A stretch of 63,151 nucleotides of DNA, filler included, from Kipferlia bialata (taxonomy: Eukaryota), in assembly GCA_003568945.1 (NCBI GenBank). It is 4 parts of 4 records of this genome, joined end to end, with 100 filler letters (N's around TTAATTAATTAA, not from the genome) between each part and the next. Parts side by side here need not be neighbours in the genome. Positions count along the whole stretch, not along the records: positions 1 to 15,725 come from BDIP01000675.1; 3 more parts are not named here. One strand, written 5' to 3'. The notes under the pieces are model-generated. The model saw nothing but the letters and a program-made list of their open reading frames with translations, was not told the origin of the DNA and ran no database searches. Of the stretch, positions 5,191 to 13,200 are shown piece after piece. Each line of letters starts with the position of its first letter. The stretch's first letter is position 1. A program made the translations under genes and the position numbers.

Positions 5191-6165
5191 TAGTGTTCAT
5201 ATATGTTGTTGTTGTAAAGAATAATTCAAGGTCCACCACCACTGCCCAGGCACCCCAGTTGTGATGGTGGGGGTGGGGGGGGAACTGAGGGGGGGGAACA
5301 GGTAGATGCAATATCACAAATACTTGTATGCAGCATATGCATATATATTTATTCTGTGTGTATTAATTACACCATGTATATGGGGGGTGGGGGCAGAGCT
5401 GAGGGGCGGGAACAGGTATATATACATGTATTCATACTATATATGCAGCATATATATATGTATAGTAATTATGCGCATATTCACTACACTGTATAATTGG
5501 TGGGGGCGGAACTGAGGGGGGAACAGGTATATGCAGTATTCTATTTCATTCTAGTCCGAGGGCAATCATTGCATGTGTGTATGGTAGTGATTGAATCTAT
5601 ATCTATGCGGAGGTTACTTACTGTGGCACCCTTGTCCCCGAGCGCAGGGTCTGGGACTAATATAACATAGTATTATAGTAATAGTATATTAGTATATGAT
5701 CACTAATACTAGCACCCTTGTCCCCGAGCGCAGGGTCTGGGACACCGCGCATGCCATAAACGCAAGACACTTCCTAGAGTGCTCCACAGCCACTGGGTCT
5801 GGTGTCAGTGAGGTGTTCAGGGGTGCAGTCAGAACGGGACTGGGACACGTCGAAGGTATGATAGTGTTATATATATATATGCAGAAGGTATGCAACAGAA
5901 AATATACTGCTGCTAAGAGTGCCACAGGTGTGTCAATCCTATCAGCCCTCCTCTCTCGTACCATATGTATGGGACATGTGGAATGTATGACAGTGCTCTG
6001 TACACATACAATATCCCAGATGCATATCCTGCATGTATTTGAGAGTATGTATTCTATATCATATGGCTGAAAGATCAGGGCTGGGACATGCAGAAGGTAT
6101 CGAAGAGTATAGAAGAGTATCTGCATTGTTGATTCTTTGCAGCTCAGAGGGCGCATGCTGTCTGA
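2705..6165 (+). CDS. Atypical Rho-family small GTPase-like protein with N-terminal extension (exons 2705-2808, 2958-3081, 3450-3532, 4168-4253, 4541-4626, 4859-4897, 5231-5301, 5713-5855, 6143-6165)
   Basis: Spliced translation contains [58 protein letters not shown] and [16 protein letters not shown], collinear with Rho/Rac/Cdc42. Exon phases are consistent if the intron at 4254 uses a GC donor. Confidence 0.85.
3340..6100 (+). repeat. Junction-copy arrays in introns of the Rho-like gene
   Basis: Copies of exon ends/starts with splice dinucleotides at ~3346, 3601, 3668, 3765, 3985, 4066, 4316, 4985, 5067, 5381, 5499, 5626 and 6079. Confidence 0.9.
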
Positions 6166-6771
6166 CAATACTCCTCCTTCTATGATGTTCTGATTCATGG
6201 CTGGTTCTCTTTACCACTCTTATGTTACTCCTATCCAGTGTGTGACTGTATATATCACTGATGGTATAATTGTGCTTGTTATCACTTTCGTACAACCACT
6301 AACCCAGCCCCAAATGACAATGCCTATTTTGAGTGGTGGTACCATGTTACTTGTGACATAACTAACTACCGTGTATACTAGTACTTAGCACACACTAACA
6401 CAGCCCCCAAGGACAACGATAACTGTCTAGCAATGTAGACAACACACCGGCCACTGAGGATACAGATTGTGATACCTCAGTCATTCAGCTACCTGTATTG
6501 TGGGTACCCTTCAGGTATATATATATTCAAATACTATATGCTGCGGTACACACACTTCACACCAGTCCCAATCTCCACATTGACAGACTTGCTATGTTCT
6601 ATTCACTGTATCTCTGTGTTTCCAACTGAAGGGGTGTCTGGGCGAGATACTTAGTGTGTGTCTACGTCTTCTATGTGGATGGGTCTTAATGGTTGGTACT
6701 TAGTATGACATTAATTTCACGATAATGCTCTATTCACTCTGCGTCTCCTACCATAGGGATGAGCGAGATGC

Positions 6772-8047
6772 TCAGTATGACATGAACGACACTGAGTGTA
6801 GCTGCATGGCCACCCCAGGCCTGGCCCCCATCTTAAGAGCAAACTCCTGGGCCCTTGTGATCAGGGCATCGTCTGAGAGGAGAGCAGAGACCTACTGTCA
6901 GAGTGTGTATATATGCATATCTCTGTATGTATATATATGTCTGTGGCCCTGGTCTGCAGGGCATCGTCTGCAAGGAGGGCAGAGATCTGAGGTCAGAGTG
7001 TGTATATATTCATATCTCTGTATATATATATATATGTCTGTGGCCCTGGTCTGCAGGGCATCGTCTGAGAGGAGGGCAGAGACCTGACATCAATAGGAGT
7101 GAGAGATAGTGTGTGTGTGTGAGAGAGAGAGATGACAAGGAGGGCAGAGACCTGATGTCAGAGTATTTATATGCATGGCTATGTATGTATATGTATATGG
7201 CCATGGTCTGTGTGGCATCTGAGAGGAGGGCAGATACGAATATATATCTTCATGGCTGCTTTCTACTATCAGTGTCAAGAAGGTCCCATACTAGAATAGA
7301 CAGCTCCCGTTACTCAATCAGTTAGTGCATGTTACTTAAATTGACTATGTGCAACATACCATGTTAAGAATGTCATACATATGCATCAACCTAGTGAAAC
7401 GCGGGGGGGGGGGGGAGTGATACCTGAGTGTCCTAGTCAGGATAGCATCTCTCGTACATAGTAGTAGTACCAACTGATAACTGTACACAAACTATCCTAC
7501 ACACCTTATCAGTGTCGTAGTGCTCGTGCTCGTCGTGCCTCTCATGGGGCAGTATCGACACCCAGTAGTAGGGGTAGTCTCCCTCGCCAGACTTCACCAC
7601 ATACACTCCCTCAGGTACCTCCTTAGAGGCCCAGAGGTCCTCCCACTCTGCATCGTGTAAGTAGCTGATCTCCTCCTGCTGCAGCCATTGGTTGACCTGC
7701 TATTAGATACTATAAGGCTATTAGAGACATTGGTTGACCTGATAGTAGATACTAGGGAGAGGGAGAGGGAGATGCAGCTGAAGCAGCATTGGTTGACCTG
7801 GTAGTAGAGAGAGAGATTGAGAGGAAGATAGCATAAGATTGTCATTGGTTGACCTGGTAGTAGAGACTAGGGAGAGGGGGGGGGGTTAGGACAGGAGAGA
7901 CATGTATAAAGATATGTATAAAGACATGTACCAGAGCCATGAACTCCATTAGTCTCTCTAATGGCGATATGTTCTTGTGGCAGTATGTGGTACCTTCTCC
8001 TCTGATGCCTCCCACCCGATGACCAGGAATCCACCGTAGTTGGGCAT
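6772..8047 (-). CDS. Hypothetical ~121-aa protein (exons 8047-7994, 7696-7505, 6891-6772)
   Basis: ATG at 8047, two phase-0 GT-AG introns, open frame MPNYGGFLVIGWEASEEK|VNQW..DTDK|VSALL..FMSY*. Acceptor echoes sit upstream of exons 2 and 3. Confidence 0.7.
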
Positions 8048-8434
8048 ATATATATGCTCTAAAGGAGAGACAGAGATACTACTGCATATCTTGCTCAAGT
8101 AAGGAGAACCCTTTTCGAACAAAAACATCCGATTCAGTCATCTCAGATGAGTTACCTTGACCCCAGCCCAGAGGAAGTATAATATGGATGACAAACAAAA
8201 TTGACATTATGACCAACACTGCCATTGTCTATTGGAGAACGGACCGGTGTTATGTTCATCTGACCTATATCACTTGAGTGATGGTCTACGTGTATGCTGT
8301 ATTTAGGTGTAGACCTAAATAGATAGCCTCTTGTCCTACACGTTTTCCCATACCTCGTAGCACTGTCAGGTAGAACTCTCTAACACACAAACCATATCAC
8401 ACCACACTACCAACAGAGTCTAAAACACATACAT

Positions 8435-9934
8435 ATGCCTGAGAGTCCGGTTACAACCCTCCGTGATGTGTTGTACAGTCTGAATCAGCCTATACAGTAC
8501 CCTGCGCCTCCACCAAGGGTACACTCTAGTCTAACAAAAGTACAGTACCGACTATCCCATCTATCCCTAGACAAAGCCATTCCTGTCACTACTCACACAC
8601 AGGGGGACGGAATGTGGGAGGAACCGAAACCTGATGAGAGACTTGCTGGCAGAATCCGCCGCGCCTATGAGATGAATTGGGACGATGATACCCTAGCGCC
8701 TGCTCCCAGGAGCCCCACTCTGCCACTCCTTACCATCCGACCCGGCACCCCTCTCTACAAGCACTTGGTCTCTGGTCTCCCAAGTGATCTGAGGAGACGG
8801 GTCAAGAGAATACAAACACGCGACCGGTTTACAAACCGAGGGCGAGTCAGTCCAAGACCTCGTCGCGACTATGCACCTCAGGTATACCCACTCTATCACG
8901 GCACACCAGAGGAGTGGAGGGGGAGAGAGATAGCACTACATGGGTTTGACAGGGAACTGGTGGTGAGAGGGCAGGGCATCTACGCGACTACCGATGTTAG
9001 GACAGCAATGAGATACGCTGGTTTTCTGACGGTGCTGAGGGGTCTTGACGTGCCAAGCCTCGTTAAGAAGCCGACTAAGGGTGTCTGCGTGTATGACAGA
9101 CCCTGCGATGTTCAGTGCTTGGCTGTCATAGAGTTTCAACCGGACTGCACTCCAATATCCTCCCCAGAGCCACCACTGCGCTACAGCAACACGTGCCATC
9201 CTATCCAGTCACCGCTTCAAGGCGAAGAGTCTCGCACCAACCAGCTGTTGAGGAGCACCTCACCTCCCTCTCTTGGTGAGGATAGGAGTGGTGCTATGGT
9301 GTGCCTCGCCCACCACCTCATATGGCAGTGTCGGTGTACAGTGTACGGTGGGTTTGTCAGAGACTGGGTGATAAGGGGAGAGAGGGCCAATGACCTCGAT
9401 GCTCTACTACCAAGAGTCCCCGGTCTCAGTGAACGGGGTAGAGACAGTGTTGTCAGGTCTCTCGTAGAATGTGCCCATGGAATTGGTCTTGAGTTTTGTG
9501 GATCTCGCCACCAGCCAAACAGCTATCGTGTCTCCTTCTATACATCCAGAGGAGGGTACATCAACGTGGAGCTGGTTGACCCCCACCTTCGCACCCCTCC
9601 TCCCCACGTTGACTCCTCTGCTGGTAATGTAGCAGTGAGCACTGCTGGAATGCACAGGAAGGTAGAGGGCAGGGGTGACCTGGTGCCTCTTGCTACCTGT
9701 CTAGAACACATCAGAGCCAAGCAGTTTGTGTGCTACCTGGACTTCAAGCACAGGGACAACAGGGGTGCCCTTCACAGCAGAGTGGTGCGAAAGTACCTGG
9801 ACCGCGGGTGGACGCTGCTGAATGAGTTGCCTCGTGATCAGATGGAGGAACTGTACAGCAGCCCTGACTACACGACGTGGGAGGAGAGAGGGCAGGTGGG
9901 ATCATTCTTGACACGTTACAACACAGTCAACTGA
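8435..9934 (+). CDS. Intronless 499-aa fusion of a PARP-like (H-Y type) ADP-ribosyltransferase domain and a CCA/poly(A)-polymerase-like nucleotidyltransferase domain
   Basis: ART motifs LYHGT..I..HGF..GQGIYAT..A.RY..VYD..LAVIEF. NTase motifs VYGGFVRDW..NDLD, NVELVD, VDSSAGNV. Uninterrupted ORF. Confidence 0.75.
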   Translation: MPESPVTTLRDVLYSLNQPIQYPAPPPRVHSSLTKVQYRLSHLSLDKAIPVTTHTQGDGMWEEPKPDERLAGRIRRAYEMNWDDDTLAPAPRSPTLPLLTIRPGTPLYKHLVSGLPSDLRRRVKRIQTRDRFTNRGRVSPRPRRDYAPQVYPLYHGTPEEWRGREIALHGFDRELVVRGQGIYATTDVRTAMRYAGFLTVLRGLDVPSLVKKPTKGVCVYDRPCDVQCLAVIEFQPDCTPISSPEPPLRYSNTCHPIQSPLQGEESRTNQLLRSTSPPSLGEDRSGAMVCLAHHLIWQCRCTVYGGFVRDWVIRGERANDLDALLPRVPGLSERGRDSVVRSLVECAHGIGLEFCGSRHQPNSYRVSFYTSRGGYINVELVDPHLRTPPPHVDSSAGNVAVSTAGMHRKVEGRGDLVPLATCLEHIRAKQFVCYLDFKHRDNRGALHSRVVRKYLDRGWTLLNELPRDQMEELYSSPDYTTWEERGQVGSFLTRYNTVN

Positions 9935-10239
9935 ACAGACTCAGGTTGTGACTGATTTGGATAGAAGATACTGGGATTCAGTAGACTTTCTATGATATAA
10001 ATATGTGTATACTTCATATGCAATCAATAATCTATTGTCTTGTCTGCAGGGCATAGTCAGGAGAGAACAGACCAGGCTAAGGTAGCATTTACAATAACTA
10101 CCAATAATTTTGGTTATCATTACCTAAAGGAGACAGACAAACGATGTATACCGTTTAAGGCTGGACCATGCAGGTAGCTGTCTATTTGGTAATACTAATC
10201 AAAGTCGAGATGCAACACTAATAGAAATGAACACGGATA

Positions 10240-13200
10240 CTACAGCTTGTGCCCCATCCCCTCCAACCCCTTCCTGACCCTCTTGGGTAGTGCCTCACTA
10301 GCAGATGGGTCTAGGGATGCATACCCACGGGAGAGCAGATAGGCATTGTAGCTGGTGGGTACATACTCAAGCAGCGTGTCAATTGCTTCACACACACCAG
10401 TCTCGGGGGTGTTCCCCCTGGCTGATACAGTCGGTGTATCATACAGCACTGCAGAGGTGTTGAGGGATGGGTTACCTCCCTCCACCCCGCATAGCAATGC
10501 GCTAAAGGTCATGTCCTCCCCCACCCCCTTGAACAGCCTGTCCAGCACCTCAGGGTCGGTGACACTGACCCCAGCCAGGGTGCATCTAACAGCCCTAGGG
10601 GGGTGTCGGAAGTAGCATAACGGGGGGCATCGGTAGAGATAGGAGGGTGGAATGGAGTGGACATGACCACTGTACAGTGACAACACAGATACGTGGCTGG
10701 GAGGGGTCGATTCTGCACTGTTTGCACTGTCTGTACTAGTATCTCCTGGCACCTTCCCAACCCTTGTGACAATACCACGTACCAATCTGTCTCGTGTCCC
10801 CTCACCCTCGCCAACCCTCTCTCTCAAGCACACAAACTCTCTCTCCCTCAAAGGCTCAGGGGGAGTGCTATAGCTACCAACTAAGGCATCGCTCTCAAGC
10901 ATACTCTCCTGCCTCACACTCTCCTCCTCATCCATCTCTCTCTCCAACACAAACACACACCCGTCAGCCTTGGACCCCTTGGGCGGTGTCTCCACACGCA
11001 CCTTACCCCTGATAGAGACAGGTGTGGTACCACATCCCAGGCACAGGTGCAGGAGAGAGGGTATGATGGCAGAGAGGGAGTGGATGCCGACCCTCAGCTG
11101 GGCAGCCCTCTGTGCTGCCTGAACATACACCCCTCCCATACCCTCAGGCACTCTATGGGACACAAGGGAGGCTAGGCCTACTGCTAGGAGGCACCTTCCA
11201 AGGTCAAGGGAGGTGTCCGGGGAGAAGGGGGTGTTGGAGGAGGTGGTAGAAGGAGAGGGGGATGGAAGGTGGACAGGCCGTGTGGGGGTGAAGGAGAGGG
11301 ATGCCAGAACACCTCCACCCCTGTCGAAGGAATGGAACCTGGCCTTGCAGACCTGGGTTAGAGACAAAGTATACTCACACACATACATGCTGTATCTATA
11401 TGCAGTATATATAACCATATTATACCTGCTGCAGCACCAGGCCTCTGCTATACTCCATGGACTGGGCAGAGAGGGGGTCGTTGTCACTAGGGGGTCAGAG
11501 AGAGAGAGAGACACAGACACAGTCCCCCATACGGAAAGAGAGACATGATGACGCATACACATTGCAGGGAAGATACTCATAGGTACATACCGTGTATTGG
11601 GAGTCATGACCCCAGCCAGCGACAGAGACACCACTGTCTTGGTATCCAGACAGTAGAACCTCAGGCGGTGACCACTCACAACCTAGGGGGTGAGGTATAT
11701 ATATAGAAAGAGAGAAATAAAGAGAGCGTTGGATTAGTAACACAAATTCATTCAATGACACAATAATTGAAGCTTAATCATAGCATGTGAACAATAAAGA
11801 ATTACAGTATACTTGCCGTACCTGCACCACCACTCCCTCGACCTCCCTCCCCCTGTACCTCTCAACTAGCTGCTTGGCTGTGTCTACACTGGGGTGCACT
11901 GCCAGGTTGGTGATCCCGGGCTGGGGCCACTCGACAGTCCTGGGGGTAGGGGTATATATATATATAATAATATGTAAATAGAGGGTGATGGCAAAAGAAA
12001 GAGAGAGAGAGAGAGTATAGCACACAGTCACACTCCACCCTTCTAGCCTTAGCCCATATTATACAGCATATACTATACTTTGTATATATAGCTTCCCACC
12101 TTGCCTTGGCCAGGATGTGCTGAGGGGCATCCTTGTTACACCTGGGTGAGTACACTTGCATGGTTATCTTACAAGAAGTGAATGGGGATCATACTAACGA
12201 CATACCTCACGTAACCTCTTCCTGCCAGCACTGCAGCGAGGTCTGACCCATCTGGGGTATGGACAGAGGCACACACAGAGGTGCCAGTCTGGGCCTGGGG
12301 TGGGTATCACACATAGTACTTATGAATATACATGTGCATATACCCGGTAGGTACCGATCTATAACACGCTACGTGAAAGGGTAATAGACATATAATACAA
12401 ATAAATGAGACTATCTCTATACCTCTGCCTTATGCATCCGGCCAACGATGACAATATACATACATACATACATACAATCCGATCCCTGTATACCTCAGCG
12501 TTGTGGACCCTAACCACTCTGCCCATGATGAGACGGGACATGGCTACAAGGCCAGGGACAGCACCTTTGCATAAGATGTATAAGAGAGAAAGAGAGAGGA
12601 GTGGATACATAGAGAGAGAGGGCGAGACAGAAGCGACTGACCTGGCTCACTCTTGTCGAGGTGCTGCCTCCTGCCCAACTTCCTGGGGGGTGAGTCGGGG
12701 TAATAGATTACAGTGCTAGATGACTAGTATTGCTAGTGTGAACATATGGCCTAGTACACAACTACATACCTCGGTGTCACATGCTGCAGTGCCACTCTGA
12801 TCTCCCTAGACCCTTCTCCACCCACCCTGTCTGCACATAGAGTGGGGGGTAGGGGTAGAGGGAGAGCCACACCACCACAACCATCAGCCTCAGCCTCTCT
12901 AAGAGCAGGAGTATCCCCCTCTACTTCCCCTTCGGTGTCCGTCTCGCCCTCTGTCTGGGGCATGGGCCTTACAAACAGCACCCCTGTGTTGACAATCTCA
13001 GTCACTAGGGCATCGTAGGACGGGCGGCAGATGGAGTCTGAATGCAACTGCTATGAGATATCGAATATGAATATGTGTATATATATATACATGAGAGACA
13101 CACAGAGAGAGAGGGCATCGTAGGAGGGGCGGCAGATGGAGTCTGAGTGGAGCTGGGGTAAATACTGAGAGAGAGAGAGGGAGAGATGGTAGCAGGTGTA

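What the first reader, a model, noticed from the sequence alone, without database searches (positions are those of the whole stretch)
8435..9934. Intronless ART + nucleotidyltransferase fusion, a candidate conflict/defence or RNA-modifying enzyme
Seen: a 499-aa single-exon ORF in a genome where nearly every other gene is heavily spliced. Established motifs: HGT and GxGxY are the H-Y NAD-binding elements of PARP-like ARTs. The usual catalytic Glu before VVY is absent (KGVCVYD), pointing to mono-ART or non-polymerising activity. GGxVRD..DxD is the class II Pol-beta NTase (CCA/poly(A) polymerase) signature, but the tRNA-binding body/tail is missing. Inference: a two-enzyme module coupling NAD-dependent ADP-ribosylation with nucleotidyl transfer, possibly acquired laterally or from a virus or by retroposition.
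Basis: partly seen in the sequence, partly recalled or inferred. Interest (0 to 1): 0.75.

Follow-up and report, generated by a model that had tools for sequence, protein, structure and literature searches.

The report
Helicase-less offshoot of giant protist PARP-nucleotidyltransferase
This gene joins a PARP-like domain to a nucleotide-adding domain and is likely a cut-down copy of a large helicase-containing protein found across many protists, a family that would act on RNA, perhaps in antiviral defence, and that I did not find described in five literature searches.

Summary
Both domains are real, but the gene is neither clearly intronless nor foreign. The 499-codon frame exists. Its predicted folds match mono-PARPs (PARP10/12) and class II A/CCA-adding enzymes or TENT5. 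All catalytic acids of the nucleotidyltransferase (NTase) are kept; the ADP-ribosyltransferase (ART) keeps H-Y-Y, lacks the glutamate and is eroded. Bases 8519-8602 are probably an in-frame GT-AG intron: a second genomic copy carries two stops and a 2-nt insertion there, while both enzyme cores show purifying selection. Relatives are 1,400-2,800-aa eukaryotic proteins: [Macro]-[Nudix]-ART-DEAH helicase-NTase (26 of 152 proteins) or DEAH-ART-WWE-NTase (8 of 152), named from metamonads, oomycetes, chrysophytes, Paulinella and a choanoflagellate. Both domains group with full-length Kipferlia bialata paralogs, so the gene most likely arose in place by losing about 980 residues of helicase core. 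No convincing prokaryote or phage relative was found. Best guess: a sensor-less effector module that tails RNA 3' ends and may mono-ADP-ribosylate; activity, substrate and expression are untested. The parent family is the more interesting result.

The parts
8435..8518 (+). Likely exon 1 (28 codons); no homology to relatives shown
   Evidence: ATG at 8435; no difference listed against the second copy over 8430-8521, where one contig at intermediate depth 784 is laid
8519..8602 (+). Likely 84-nt phase-0 GT-AG intron that happens to be open in frame
   Evidence: Second copy: two in-frame stops, a 2-nt insertion, differences 6/5/3 by codon position, dN/dS 1.36; acceptor ranks 1 of 120 AG sites in the frame, donor only 24 of 101 GT sites; no RNA across it
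8603..9934 (+). Likely exon 2, holding both enzyme domains and the stop codon (spliced product would be 471 aa)
8669..9139 (+). PARP-like ART domain, residues about 79-235 of the 499-aa frame; H155, Y183, Y194, V217 at the usual glutamate position; shortened donor loop
   Evidence: Foldseek best hits PARP10/12/15, E 2e-5 to 4e-5; profile hit PARP10 E 4.7e-5; 33% identity to KIPB_005499 ART; dN/dS 0.14 over codons 161-226
9140..9229 (+). Pro/Ser-rich linker of about 30 residues standing where the parent has about 980 residues (coiled coil, DEAH helicase, HA2, OB, KH-like parts)
   Evidence: low pLDDT; dN/dS 1.9, neutral-like; no helicase remnant in six frames of the window
9230..9904 (+). Class II-like Pol-beta nucleotidyltransferase, head and neck only; GGxxRD 305-310, D320, D322, E379, D393, N398, K453-Y454
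   Evidence: model pLDDT 91.7; VIA Z 10.2, rmsd 4.9, 180 aligned to 3wfo_A; 18 of 22 family-conserved columns kept; dN/dS 0.03 over codons 286-324

Best explanation
The gene encodes a PARP-like domain joined by a short linker to a class II-type nucleotidyltransferase, and it likely arose inside the Kipferlia lineage by loss of the helicase core from a larger ART-DEAH helicase-NTase gene, leaving a module predicted to add a few untemplated nucleotides to RNA 3' ends and perhaps to transfer single ADP-ribose units. Shown: the two folds, the intact NTase acids, the parent architecture, the tree position, and purifying selection on both cores against a second genomic copy. Inferred: the parent is a one-chain RNA sensor-effector in which the DEAH helicase and KH-like domains engage RNA, the ART marks it or a bound protein with one ADP-ribose, Macro and Nudix (in many members) erase or trim such marks or caps, and the NTase tails the 3' end to change its fate; the short form keeps the two writers, has lost its own RNA-loading motor, and so would act through a partner or without that control. 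About 0.85 for the origin, about 0.5 for RNA tailing as the NTase reaction, about 0.5 for the ART still being catalytic.
For: Parent: KIPB_005499 (P0004, 1,413 aa) matches in two separate stretches, ART 33% at its residues 47-187 and NTase 47% at 1158-1399, with a DEAH helicase between. Architecture count over 152 proteins: ART-helicase-NTase 26, helicase-ART-NTase 8, ART-helicase 6, ART-NTase 5, helicase-NTase 4, NTase only 100 (many fragments), ART only 2, none 1. Trees: NTase with P0003 and P0004, 100/98 (40 rows); ART with P0004, P0063, P0084, 99/96, sister to KIPB_003168, 98/92 (32 rows; same clade without the long row P0062). A four-residue donor-loop deletion is shared with KIPB_003168. 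NTase fold closest to enzymes that act on RNA 3' ends: tRNA A/CCA-adding enzymes Z 10.2, 9.6, 9.6 over nearly the whole model and TENT5B Z 8.5; CD-NTases and a cGLR score 6.3-6.7 over the head only (Foldseek agrees). Human mono-PARPs ADP-ribosylate phosphorylated RNA ends and macrodomains reverse it (PMC6582358, abstract); TUT4/7 and CDE-1 tail viral RNA for decay and Trf4 works with a helicase in TRAMP (PMC7988573, passages).
Against: No activity, substrate or transcript is shown. A shared fold does not fix the reaction, and rmsd values are 4-5 A. The ART keeps only 21 of 38 family-conserved columns against 29-32 of 36-37 in three full-length paralogs, sits on a long branch (2.55 against 0.4-0.6), and is three residues shorter after Y194 than the second copy. 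One contig of the DNA run skips 9788-9845 with the letters between not known; if that is the second copy it has lost the K453 motif and may be a pseudogene, which weakens dating of the selection signal. The public gene model starts at M192 and omits most of the ART. Direction of change (deletion rather than separate fusion of two paralog-derived domains) is read from the family majority, not from a rooted test; the closest ART paralog, KIPB_003168, has no NTase in its model.
Confidence: 0.5

Rival explanations
1. Only the NTase is an enzyme; the ART has become a non-catalytic NAD+/ADP-ribose-binding or scaffold domain that regulates it, as in PARP13 (comparison recalled).
For: ART erosion (21 of 38 conserved columns), two loop deletions around the NAD+ pocket, long branch, yet dN/dS 0.14 and H155, Y183, Y194 kept.
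Against: The pocket residues are all kept, and one of the two deletions is shared with a full-length paralog.
Confidence: 0.25
2. The NTase makes a signalling nucleotide or nucleotidylates a protein or ADP-ribose product rather than RNA ends, so the family would be a cGAS/OAS-like or Gad2-like switch coupled to ADP-ribosylation.
For: The same NTase is joined directly to three different ART types (P0001, P0062, P0074) and follows WWE domains in the second architecture, which ties it to ADP-ribose more than to any one RNA-binding part. Language-model neighbours include Gad2 clusters at 0.87-0.88, a lead only; Gad2 is a predicted NTase of unknown mechanism (10.1101/2023.05.01.538930, passages).
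Against: CD-NTases, cGLR1 and OAS2 match only the head at Z 6.0-6.7, below the RNA-end enzymes; 0 of 6 proteins had an NTase or ART match in PADLOC (helicase matches only).
Confidence: 0.2
3. A decaying by-product of paralog expansion with no present function.
For: Loss of the helicase core, ART erosion, possible break in the second copy.
Against: Synonymous excess in four coding stretches (5/3, 9/4, 11/1, 6/4 synonymous/non-synonymous; one-sided p 0.013, 0.0009, <0.00001, 0.014); a 443-codon frame is open; the NTase is as well conserved as in the parents.
Confidence: 0.1
4. One reading: an intronless cassette taken from a virus or prokaryote, or a retrocopy.
For: Structurally similar NTases are common in giant viruses (79 matches at E <= 0.001 to the two-domain model, top rows Mimiviridae and pithoviruses at 9-18% identity). 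A retroposition step earlier in the history cannot be excluded, because the parent's intron positions were not available.
Against: Kipferlia clade in both trees; likely intron; 0 of 11 pattern matches confirmed in prokaryote genomes; no match or E 0.3 in 50,697 phage records; viral contigs gave 3 short weak matches only (2 of 33 and 1 of 25 stretches). Those pattern searches are of limited sensitivity.
Confidence: 0.05

Closest known systems
Kipferlia bialata KIPB_005499, KIPB_008247, KIPB_003168, KIPB_010413 (unannotated 'hypothetical' proteins) and their protist relatives
   Same: Same ART subtype and same NTase; both domains in one clade with them
   Different: This gene lacks the coiled coil, DEAH helicase, HA2, OB and KH-like parts and any Macro, Nudix or Kelch domain; its ART is more eroded
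Human mono-ADP-ribosylating PARPs (PARP10, 12, 14, 15; PARP13)
   Same: Catalytic fold, H and Y of the pocket, hydrophobic residue in place of the glutamate; the parents share Macro, WWE, KH and CCCH companions with these PARPs (human architectures recalled)
   Different: 13-19% identity; shorter donor loop; fused to an NTase, which no human PARP is (recalled)
Class II tRNA nucleotidyltransferases (CCA-, CC-, A-adding) and bacterial poly(A) polymerase
   Same: GGxxRD, DxD, third acid; head and neck fold, Z 8.0-10.2
   Different: No RRD or EDxxR motif (motif names recalled; alignment), no body or tail; 9-14% identity
TENT5/FAM46 non-canonical poly(A) polymerases
   Same: Compact NTase with a small helical lobe; top Foldseek hit FAM46C E 5.3e-5, FAM46B Z 8.5
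   Different: No sequence match; fused to ART and, in parents, to a helicase
Phage Gad2 and giant-virus 'poly(A) polymerase head' NTases (DUF5769)
   Same: Language-model and fold resemblance; weak PolyA_pol match in 11 of 59 and DUF5769 in 2 of 59 family members
   Different: No significant sequence match in phage records; stand-alone viral proteins

Membership tests
PARP-like (ARTD) ADP-ribosyltransferase domain | PARP catalytic fold | tested here: met
   Foldseek top hits are PARP10, 12, 15, 14, E 2e-5 to 1e-4; profile of 5 ART stretches hits PARP10 at E 4.7e-5
PARP-like (ARTD) ADP-ribosyltransferase domain | H and Y of the NAD+ pocket | tested here: met
   H155 and Y183 align with HGT and GxGxY of PARP10/12/14; Y194 kept in 44 of 45 relatives
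PARP-like (ARTD) ADP-ribosyltransferase domain | Pfam PF00644 above cut-off for this protein | tested here: not met
   0 Pfam families for the protein and none for the ART stretch; 13 of 28 relatives hit PF00644, 2 above the cut-off
PARP-like (ARTD) ADP-ribosyltransferase domain | NAD+-dependent transfer activity | not testable with these tools
   needs an assay
Poly(ADP-ribose) polymerases (H-Y-E) | Catalytic glutamate | tested here: not met
   V217; no acid conserved at 215-220 in 45 relatives. The mapping of V217 to the glutamate position rests on recalled PARP motifs; the HMM alignment stops before it
Class II CCA/A-adding enzymes and poly(A) polymerase | GGxxRD, DxD and third acid | tested here: met
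   G305-D310, D320, D322, E379
Class II CCA/A-adding enzymes and poly(A) polymerase | Head and neck fold | tested here: met
   Z 10.2, rmsd 4.9, 180 aligned of 239
Class II CCA/A-adding enzymes and poly(A) polymerase | RRD and EDxxR nucleotide-selecting motifs (recalled) | tested here: not met
   Family has PxxDxDxxN and RxxKYxxRGW at those places
Class II CCA/A-adding enzymes and poly(A) polymerase | tRNA-binding body and tail | tested here: not met
   The model ends where the targets reach residue about 215-250 of 370-430
TENT5/FAM46 | Sequence membership | tested here: not met
   No FAM46 row for a 59-sequence profile in PDB sequences or Pfam; fold resemblance only
CD-NTase / cGLR / OAS | Whole two-lobed cage fold | tested here: inconclusive
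   Head-only matches, Z 6.0-6.7
Gad2 (PF26128) | Sequence membership | tested here: inconclusive
   Atlas score 0.87-0.88, lead only; no Gad2 row in the Pfam copy scanned, which may not hold that family; no Gad2 sequence was at hand
Protist ART-DEAH helicase-NTase family (type I, defined here) | Family ART and family NTase | tested here: met
   HMM of the family ART built without the query scores 83.6 bits on the window, NTase HMM 205 bits
Protist ART-DEAH helicase-NTase family (type I, defined here) | DEAH helicase core between them | tested here: not met
   Gap of 21 residues against 929-1,195 in the 26 full forms; no helicase hit in the window. It is a derivative, not a full member

The most novel reading that the evidence does not exclude
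Protists from at least four eukaryotic supergroups carry an undescribed one-chain RNA immunity machine that puts a DEAH helicase sensor, an ADP-ribose writer, ADP-ribose and cap erasers (Macro, Nudix) and a new class II-derived NTase in one protein; the ART-NTase pair is its effector core, freed from the helicase at least three times, and the NTase may couple ADP-ribosylation to RNA tailing or to a new nucleotide signal.
Probability: 0.3. Interest if true: 0.85.

Novelty: new variant of a known kind. Interest (0 to 1): 0.62.

Why it matters
Animals spread antiviral RNA control over separate proteins: helicase sensors, mono-PARPs, macrodomains and tailing enzymes. Here the same toolkit appears fused in single proteins across metamonads, stramenopiles, a rhizarian and a choanoflagellate, which would point to an old cell-intrinsic RNA defence or surveillance route in microbial eukaryotes. 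The short Kipferlia form is a natural minimal construct (two domains, well predicted NTase model) that makes the chemistry directly testable. If the short gene is only a decaying paralog, the family itself remains a clear target.

Tried and rejected
Pfam, NCBIfam and PADLOC gave nothing for the protein itself; phmmer against PDB sequences gave only chance rows. No whole genome is held for the window, so paralogs could be counted only from protein collections and one DNA run. No RNA holder was listed; the one run guessed to be RNA covers spliced neighbours and shows no piece on the 5' part of this gene, which is no evidence either way. An apparent conserved motif in the linker was an alignment artefact, its letters drawn from columns hundreds of residues apart, and was dropped. 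A compensated frameshift in residues 128-150 was looked for; the other frames look no more like the family. A second intron from the strong donor at 9896 was considered and left unproven, since the open frame's own end resembles the family's terminal KY motif. The sequence encoded by the candidate intron scores no better than its shuffles against the closest paralog, although BLAST extends weakly into it. The last protein search covered only 3,816-5,000-aa proteins and found none. The separate Atlas search of the ART and the VIA comparison of the two-domain model were not obtained because the machines were busy. No complex prediction was run. Four look-ups in earlier findings gave nothing on this family.

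Full report
Observation. No Pfam, NCBIfam or PADLOC family matches it. The window is most likely from Kipferlia bialata: the nearest named relatives are its proteins, and a 308-aa public model of this very gene, starting at M192, is on record. That genome has 124,912 GU-AG introns for 17,389 genes (PMC5874029, passages seen).

The gene is probably not intronless. Contigs of the one DNA run that holds the region show a second, diverged copy over roughly 8320-9750, each copy at about the depth of the single-copy flanks (about 490), so a paralog rather than an allele is likely. Over 8519-8602 the second copy has 14 substitutions spread 6/5/3 over codon positions, two of them making stops, plus a 2-nt insertion; dN/dS there is 1.36, against 0.16 just after it, 0.14 in the ART, 0.03 and 0.20 in two NTase stretches, and 1.56-1.9 in the linker. 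The stretch starts GT, ends AG, and is 84 nt long, within the 64-613 nt of 8 introns supported by the RNA-like run. With a matrix from those 8 introns its acceptor ranks 1 of 120 AG sites in the frame, its donor only 24 of 101 GT sites. An alternative is that everything before 8603 is untranslated and the protein starts at M60. Limits: counts are small, pairwise and uncorrected; 15 of 39 differences on one contig were not listed; 8715-8914, which holds H155, was not seen for the second copy; one difference at the edge of an insertion was left out.

The two domains. An AlphaFold model of residues 57-499 (27-row alignment, mean pLDDT 79.5) matches human PARP10, 12, 15 and 14 first (E 2e-5 to 1e-4), and a five-sequence ART profile hits PARP10 at E 4.7e-5 with H155 and Y183 on the pocket residues. 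The position of the polymerase glutamate holds V217, and no acid is conserved nearby in 45 relatives; this mapping uses recalled PARP motifs. The NTase model (59-row alignment, pLDDT 91.7) matches FAM46C and tRNA nucleotidyltransferases in Foldseek and, among 48,161 chains, class II A/CCA-adding enzymes best (Z 10.2, rmsd 4.9, 180 aligned), then TENT5B (Z 8.5); CD-NTases, cGLR1 and OAS2 match the head only (Z 6.0-6.7). D320, D322 and E379 are kept, and 18 of 22 family-conserved columns. The ART is eroded: 21 of 38 conserved columns against 29-32 of 36-37 in three paralogs, with a four-residue donor-loop deletion shared with KIPB_003168 and three residues fewer after Y194 than the second copy.

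What it comes from. A search of 1.84 billion cluster representatives gave 166 hits, 150 listed. KIPB_005499 (1,413 aa) matches at both ends with a DEAH helicase between. Of 152 proteins (the 150, the query and one), 26 read ART-helicase-NTase and 8 helicase-ART-NTase; 6 were ART-helicase, 5 ART-NTase, 4 helicase-NTase, 2 ART only, 100 NTase only (many are fragments) and 1 neither. In the 28 proteins scanned, Macro was found in 8, Nudix in 15 (several below the cut-off), WWE in 4, with weak KH, HA2, IBR/RING, CCCH and Kelch matches in some. So two layouts exist: [Macro]-[Nudix]-ART-DEAH-HA2-OB-KH-NTase, and [CCCH]-DEAH-RING/IBR-ART-WWE-WWE-NTase. Of 30 proteins looked up, 11 carried an organism name, all eukaryotes: Kipferlia bialata, Chilomastix cuspidata, Eukaryota sp. 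TZLM1-RC and TZLM3-RCL, Aphanomyces stellatus, Lagenidium giganteum, Chlorochromonas danica, Pedospumella encystans, Paulinella micropora, Choanoeca perplexa; 18 had no organism and 1 was this gene. Metagenome contigs gave 21 loci, some with the full layout in one frame and some broken by intron-sized gaps. Prokaryote genomes gave 0 of 11 pattern matches confirmed, phage records nothing significant, viral contigs three short weak matches; these pattern searches can miss distant relatives, and giant viruses do hold NTases of similar fold at 9-18% identity.

Trees. In a 40-row NTase tree (41 chosen, P0091 lacked a full domain) this gene joins KIPB_010413 and KIPB_005499 at 100/98. In a 32-row ART tree (P0114 left out as truncated) it joins the three Kipferlia ARTs at 99/96, sister to KIPB_003168 at 98/92, on a long branch; the clade holds without the long row P0062. 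No rooted or AU test was run. The simplest reading is an in-lineage duplication followed by loss of about 980 residues between ART and NTase; recombination between two paralogs would look the same. Direct ART-NTase joins occur twice more among the 152, with different ART types: P0062 (ART of the second layout, 523 aa) and P0074 (kinase plus a conventional PARP domain); their NTases fall in other parts of a 105-row quick tree. The Atlas's top neighbour, a 127-member mostly rotifer cluster of 446 aa named PARP (score 0.94), may be another such form; I could not test it.

How it likely works. Shown: folds, kept catalytic acids, family architecture, selection. Inferred: the NTase uses its three acids and two metals to add untemplated nucleotides; with no tRNA-binding body or CCA-templating motifs it would make short tails on RNAs brought by another part, which in the parent is the DEAH helicase and KH-like region. 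The ART would add single ADP-ribose units; human PARP10, 11 and 15 do so on phosphorylated RNA ends and macrodomains remove them (PMC6582358, abstract only). Tailing enzymes mark viral RNA for decay, and Trf4 works with a helicase (PMC7988573, passages). The parent therefore reads as a one-chain RNA surveillance or antiviral enzyme, and this gene as its effector pair without the motor. I put this at 0.5; an inactive regulatory ART 0.25; a signalling nucleotide or protein nucleotidylation 0.2; a decaying paralog 0.1; foreign origin 0.05 (the first two overlap in part).

Is it known? Five full-text searches for this combination of domains returned 4, 0, 1, 0 and 1 papers; by their listings none describes the family, and passages of one (PMC9503650) do not mention it. 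I did not open the other five, saw no supplements, and one comparative survey I wanted was not held, so prior description in supplementary architecture tables cannot be excluded. Public names are 'hypothetical protein', 'HrpA-like RNA helicase' or 'RNA helicase'. Gad2 is a predicted phage NTase of unknown mechanism (10.1101/2023.05.01.538930, passages) and only a weak lead here.

Verdict. A real two-domain gene, wrongly read as intronless and foreign; a helicase-less derivative of a widespread, apparently undescribed protist family. New variant of known kinds of parts; interest 0.62, carried mostly by the parent family and by the short form's value as a minimal testable construct.

Noticed in passing
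window 8320-9750 (second copy, not in the window): A diverged second copy of the gene exists in the same DNA run at single-copy depth; it has 9 more bases after 9017 and one contig skips 9788-9845, so it may be broken near its end.
   Followed up: partly
proteins P0063, P0084, P0003, P0035: The family is expanded and shuffled in Kipferlia: Kelch-ART-DEAH (KIPB_003168), Macro-Nudix-ART-DEAH (KIPB_008247, partial), a C-terminal NTase piece (KIPB_010413); unnamed P0035 (NTase followed by an LRR-like tail) groups with them at SH-aLRT 90.
   Followed up: partly
proteins P0062 and P0011: A short ART-NTase-UIM protein and a full-length 1,768-aa member are each recorded on a contig of 17,388 bases; they may be neighbours on one contig, which could not be checked.
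   Followed up: no
proteins P0074, P0124, P0059: The same NTase is also fused to kinase plus PARP, to LRRs and to an RRM, the pattern of a shuffled effector domain.
   Followed up: partly
window 7686-7884: Four copies of a roughly 42-nt unit inside an intron of the upstream minus-strand gene, each repeating the sequence around the acceptor of the exon that begins near 7694; many unrelated contigs share part of it.
   Followed up: no
window 5696-6515 (+), 6771-8060 (-), 10170-13000 (-): Neighbouring genes are spliced in the RNA-like run: a small GTPase-like C-terminus (likeness recalled), a short unknown gene head-to-head with this one, and a long unknown gene tail-to-tail (0 Pfam matches for its last exon frame).
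   Followed up: partly
L004:1617-2460 and L018:6849-7020: The NTase profile also scores on the opposite strand of these two metagenome loci, possibly an inverted duplication or assembly artefact.
   Followed up: no
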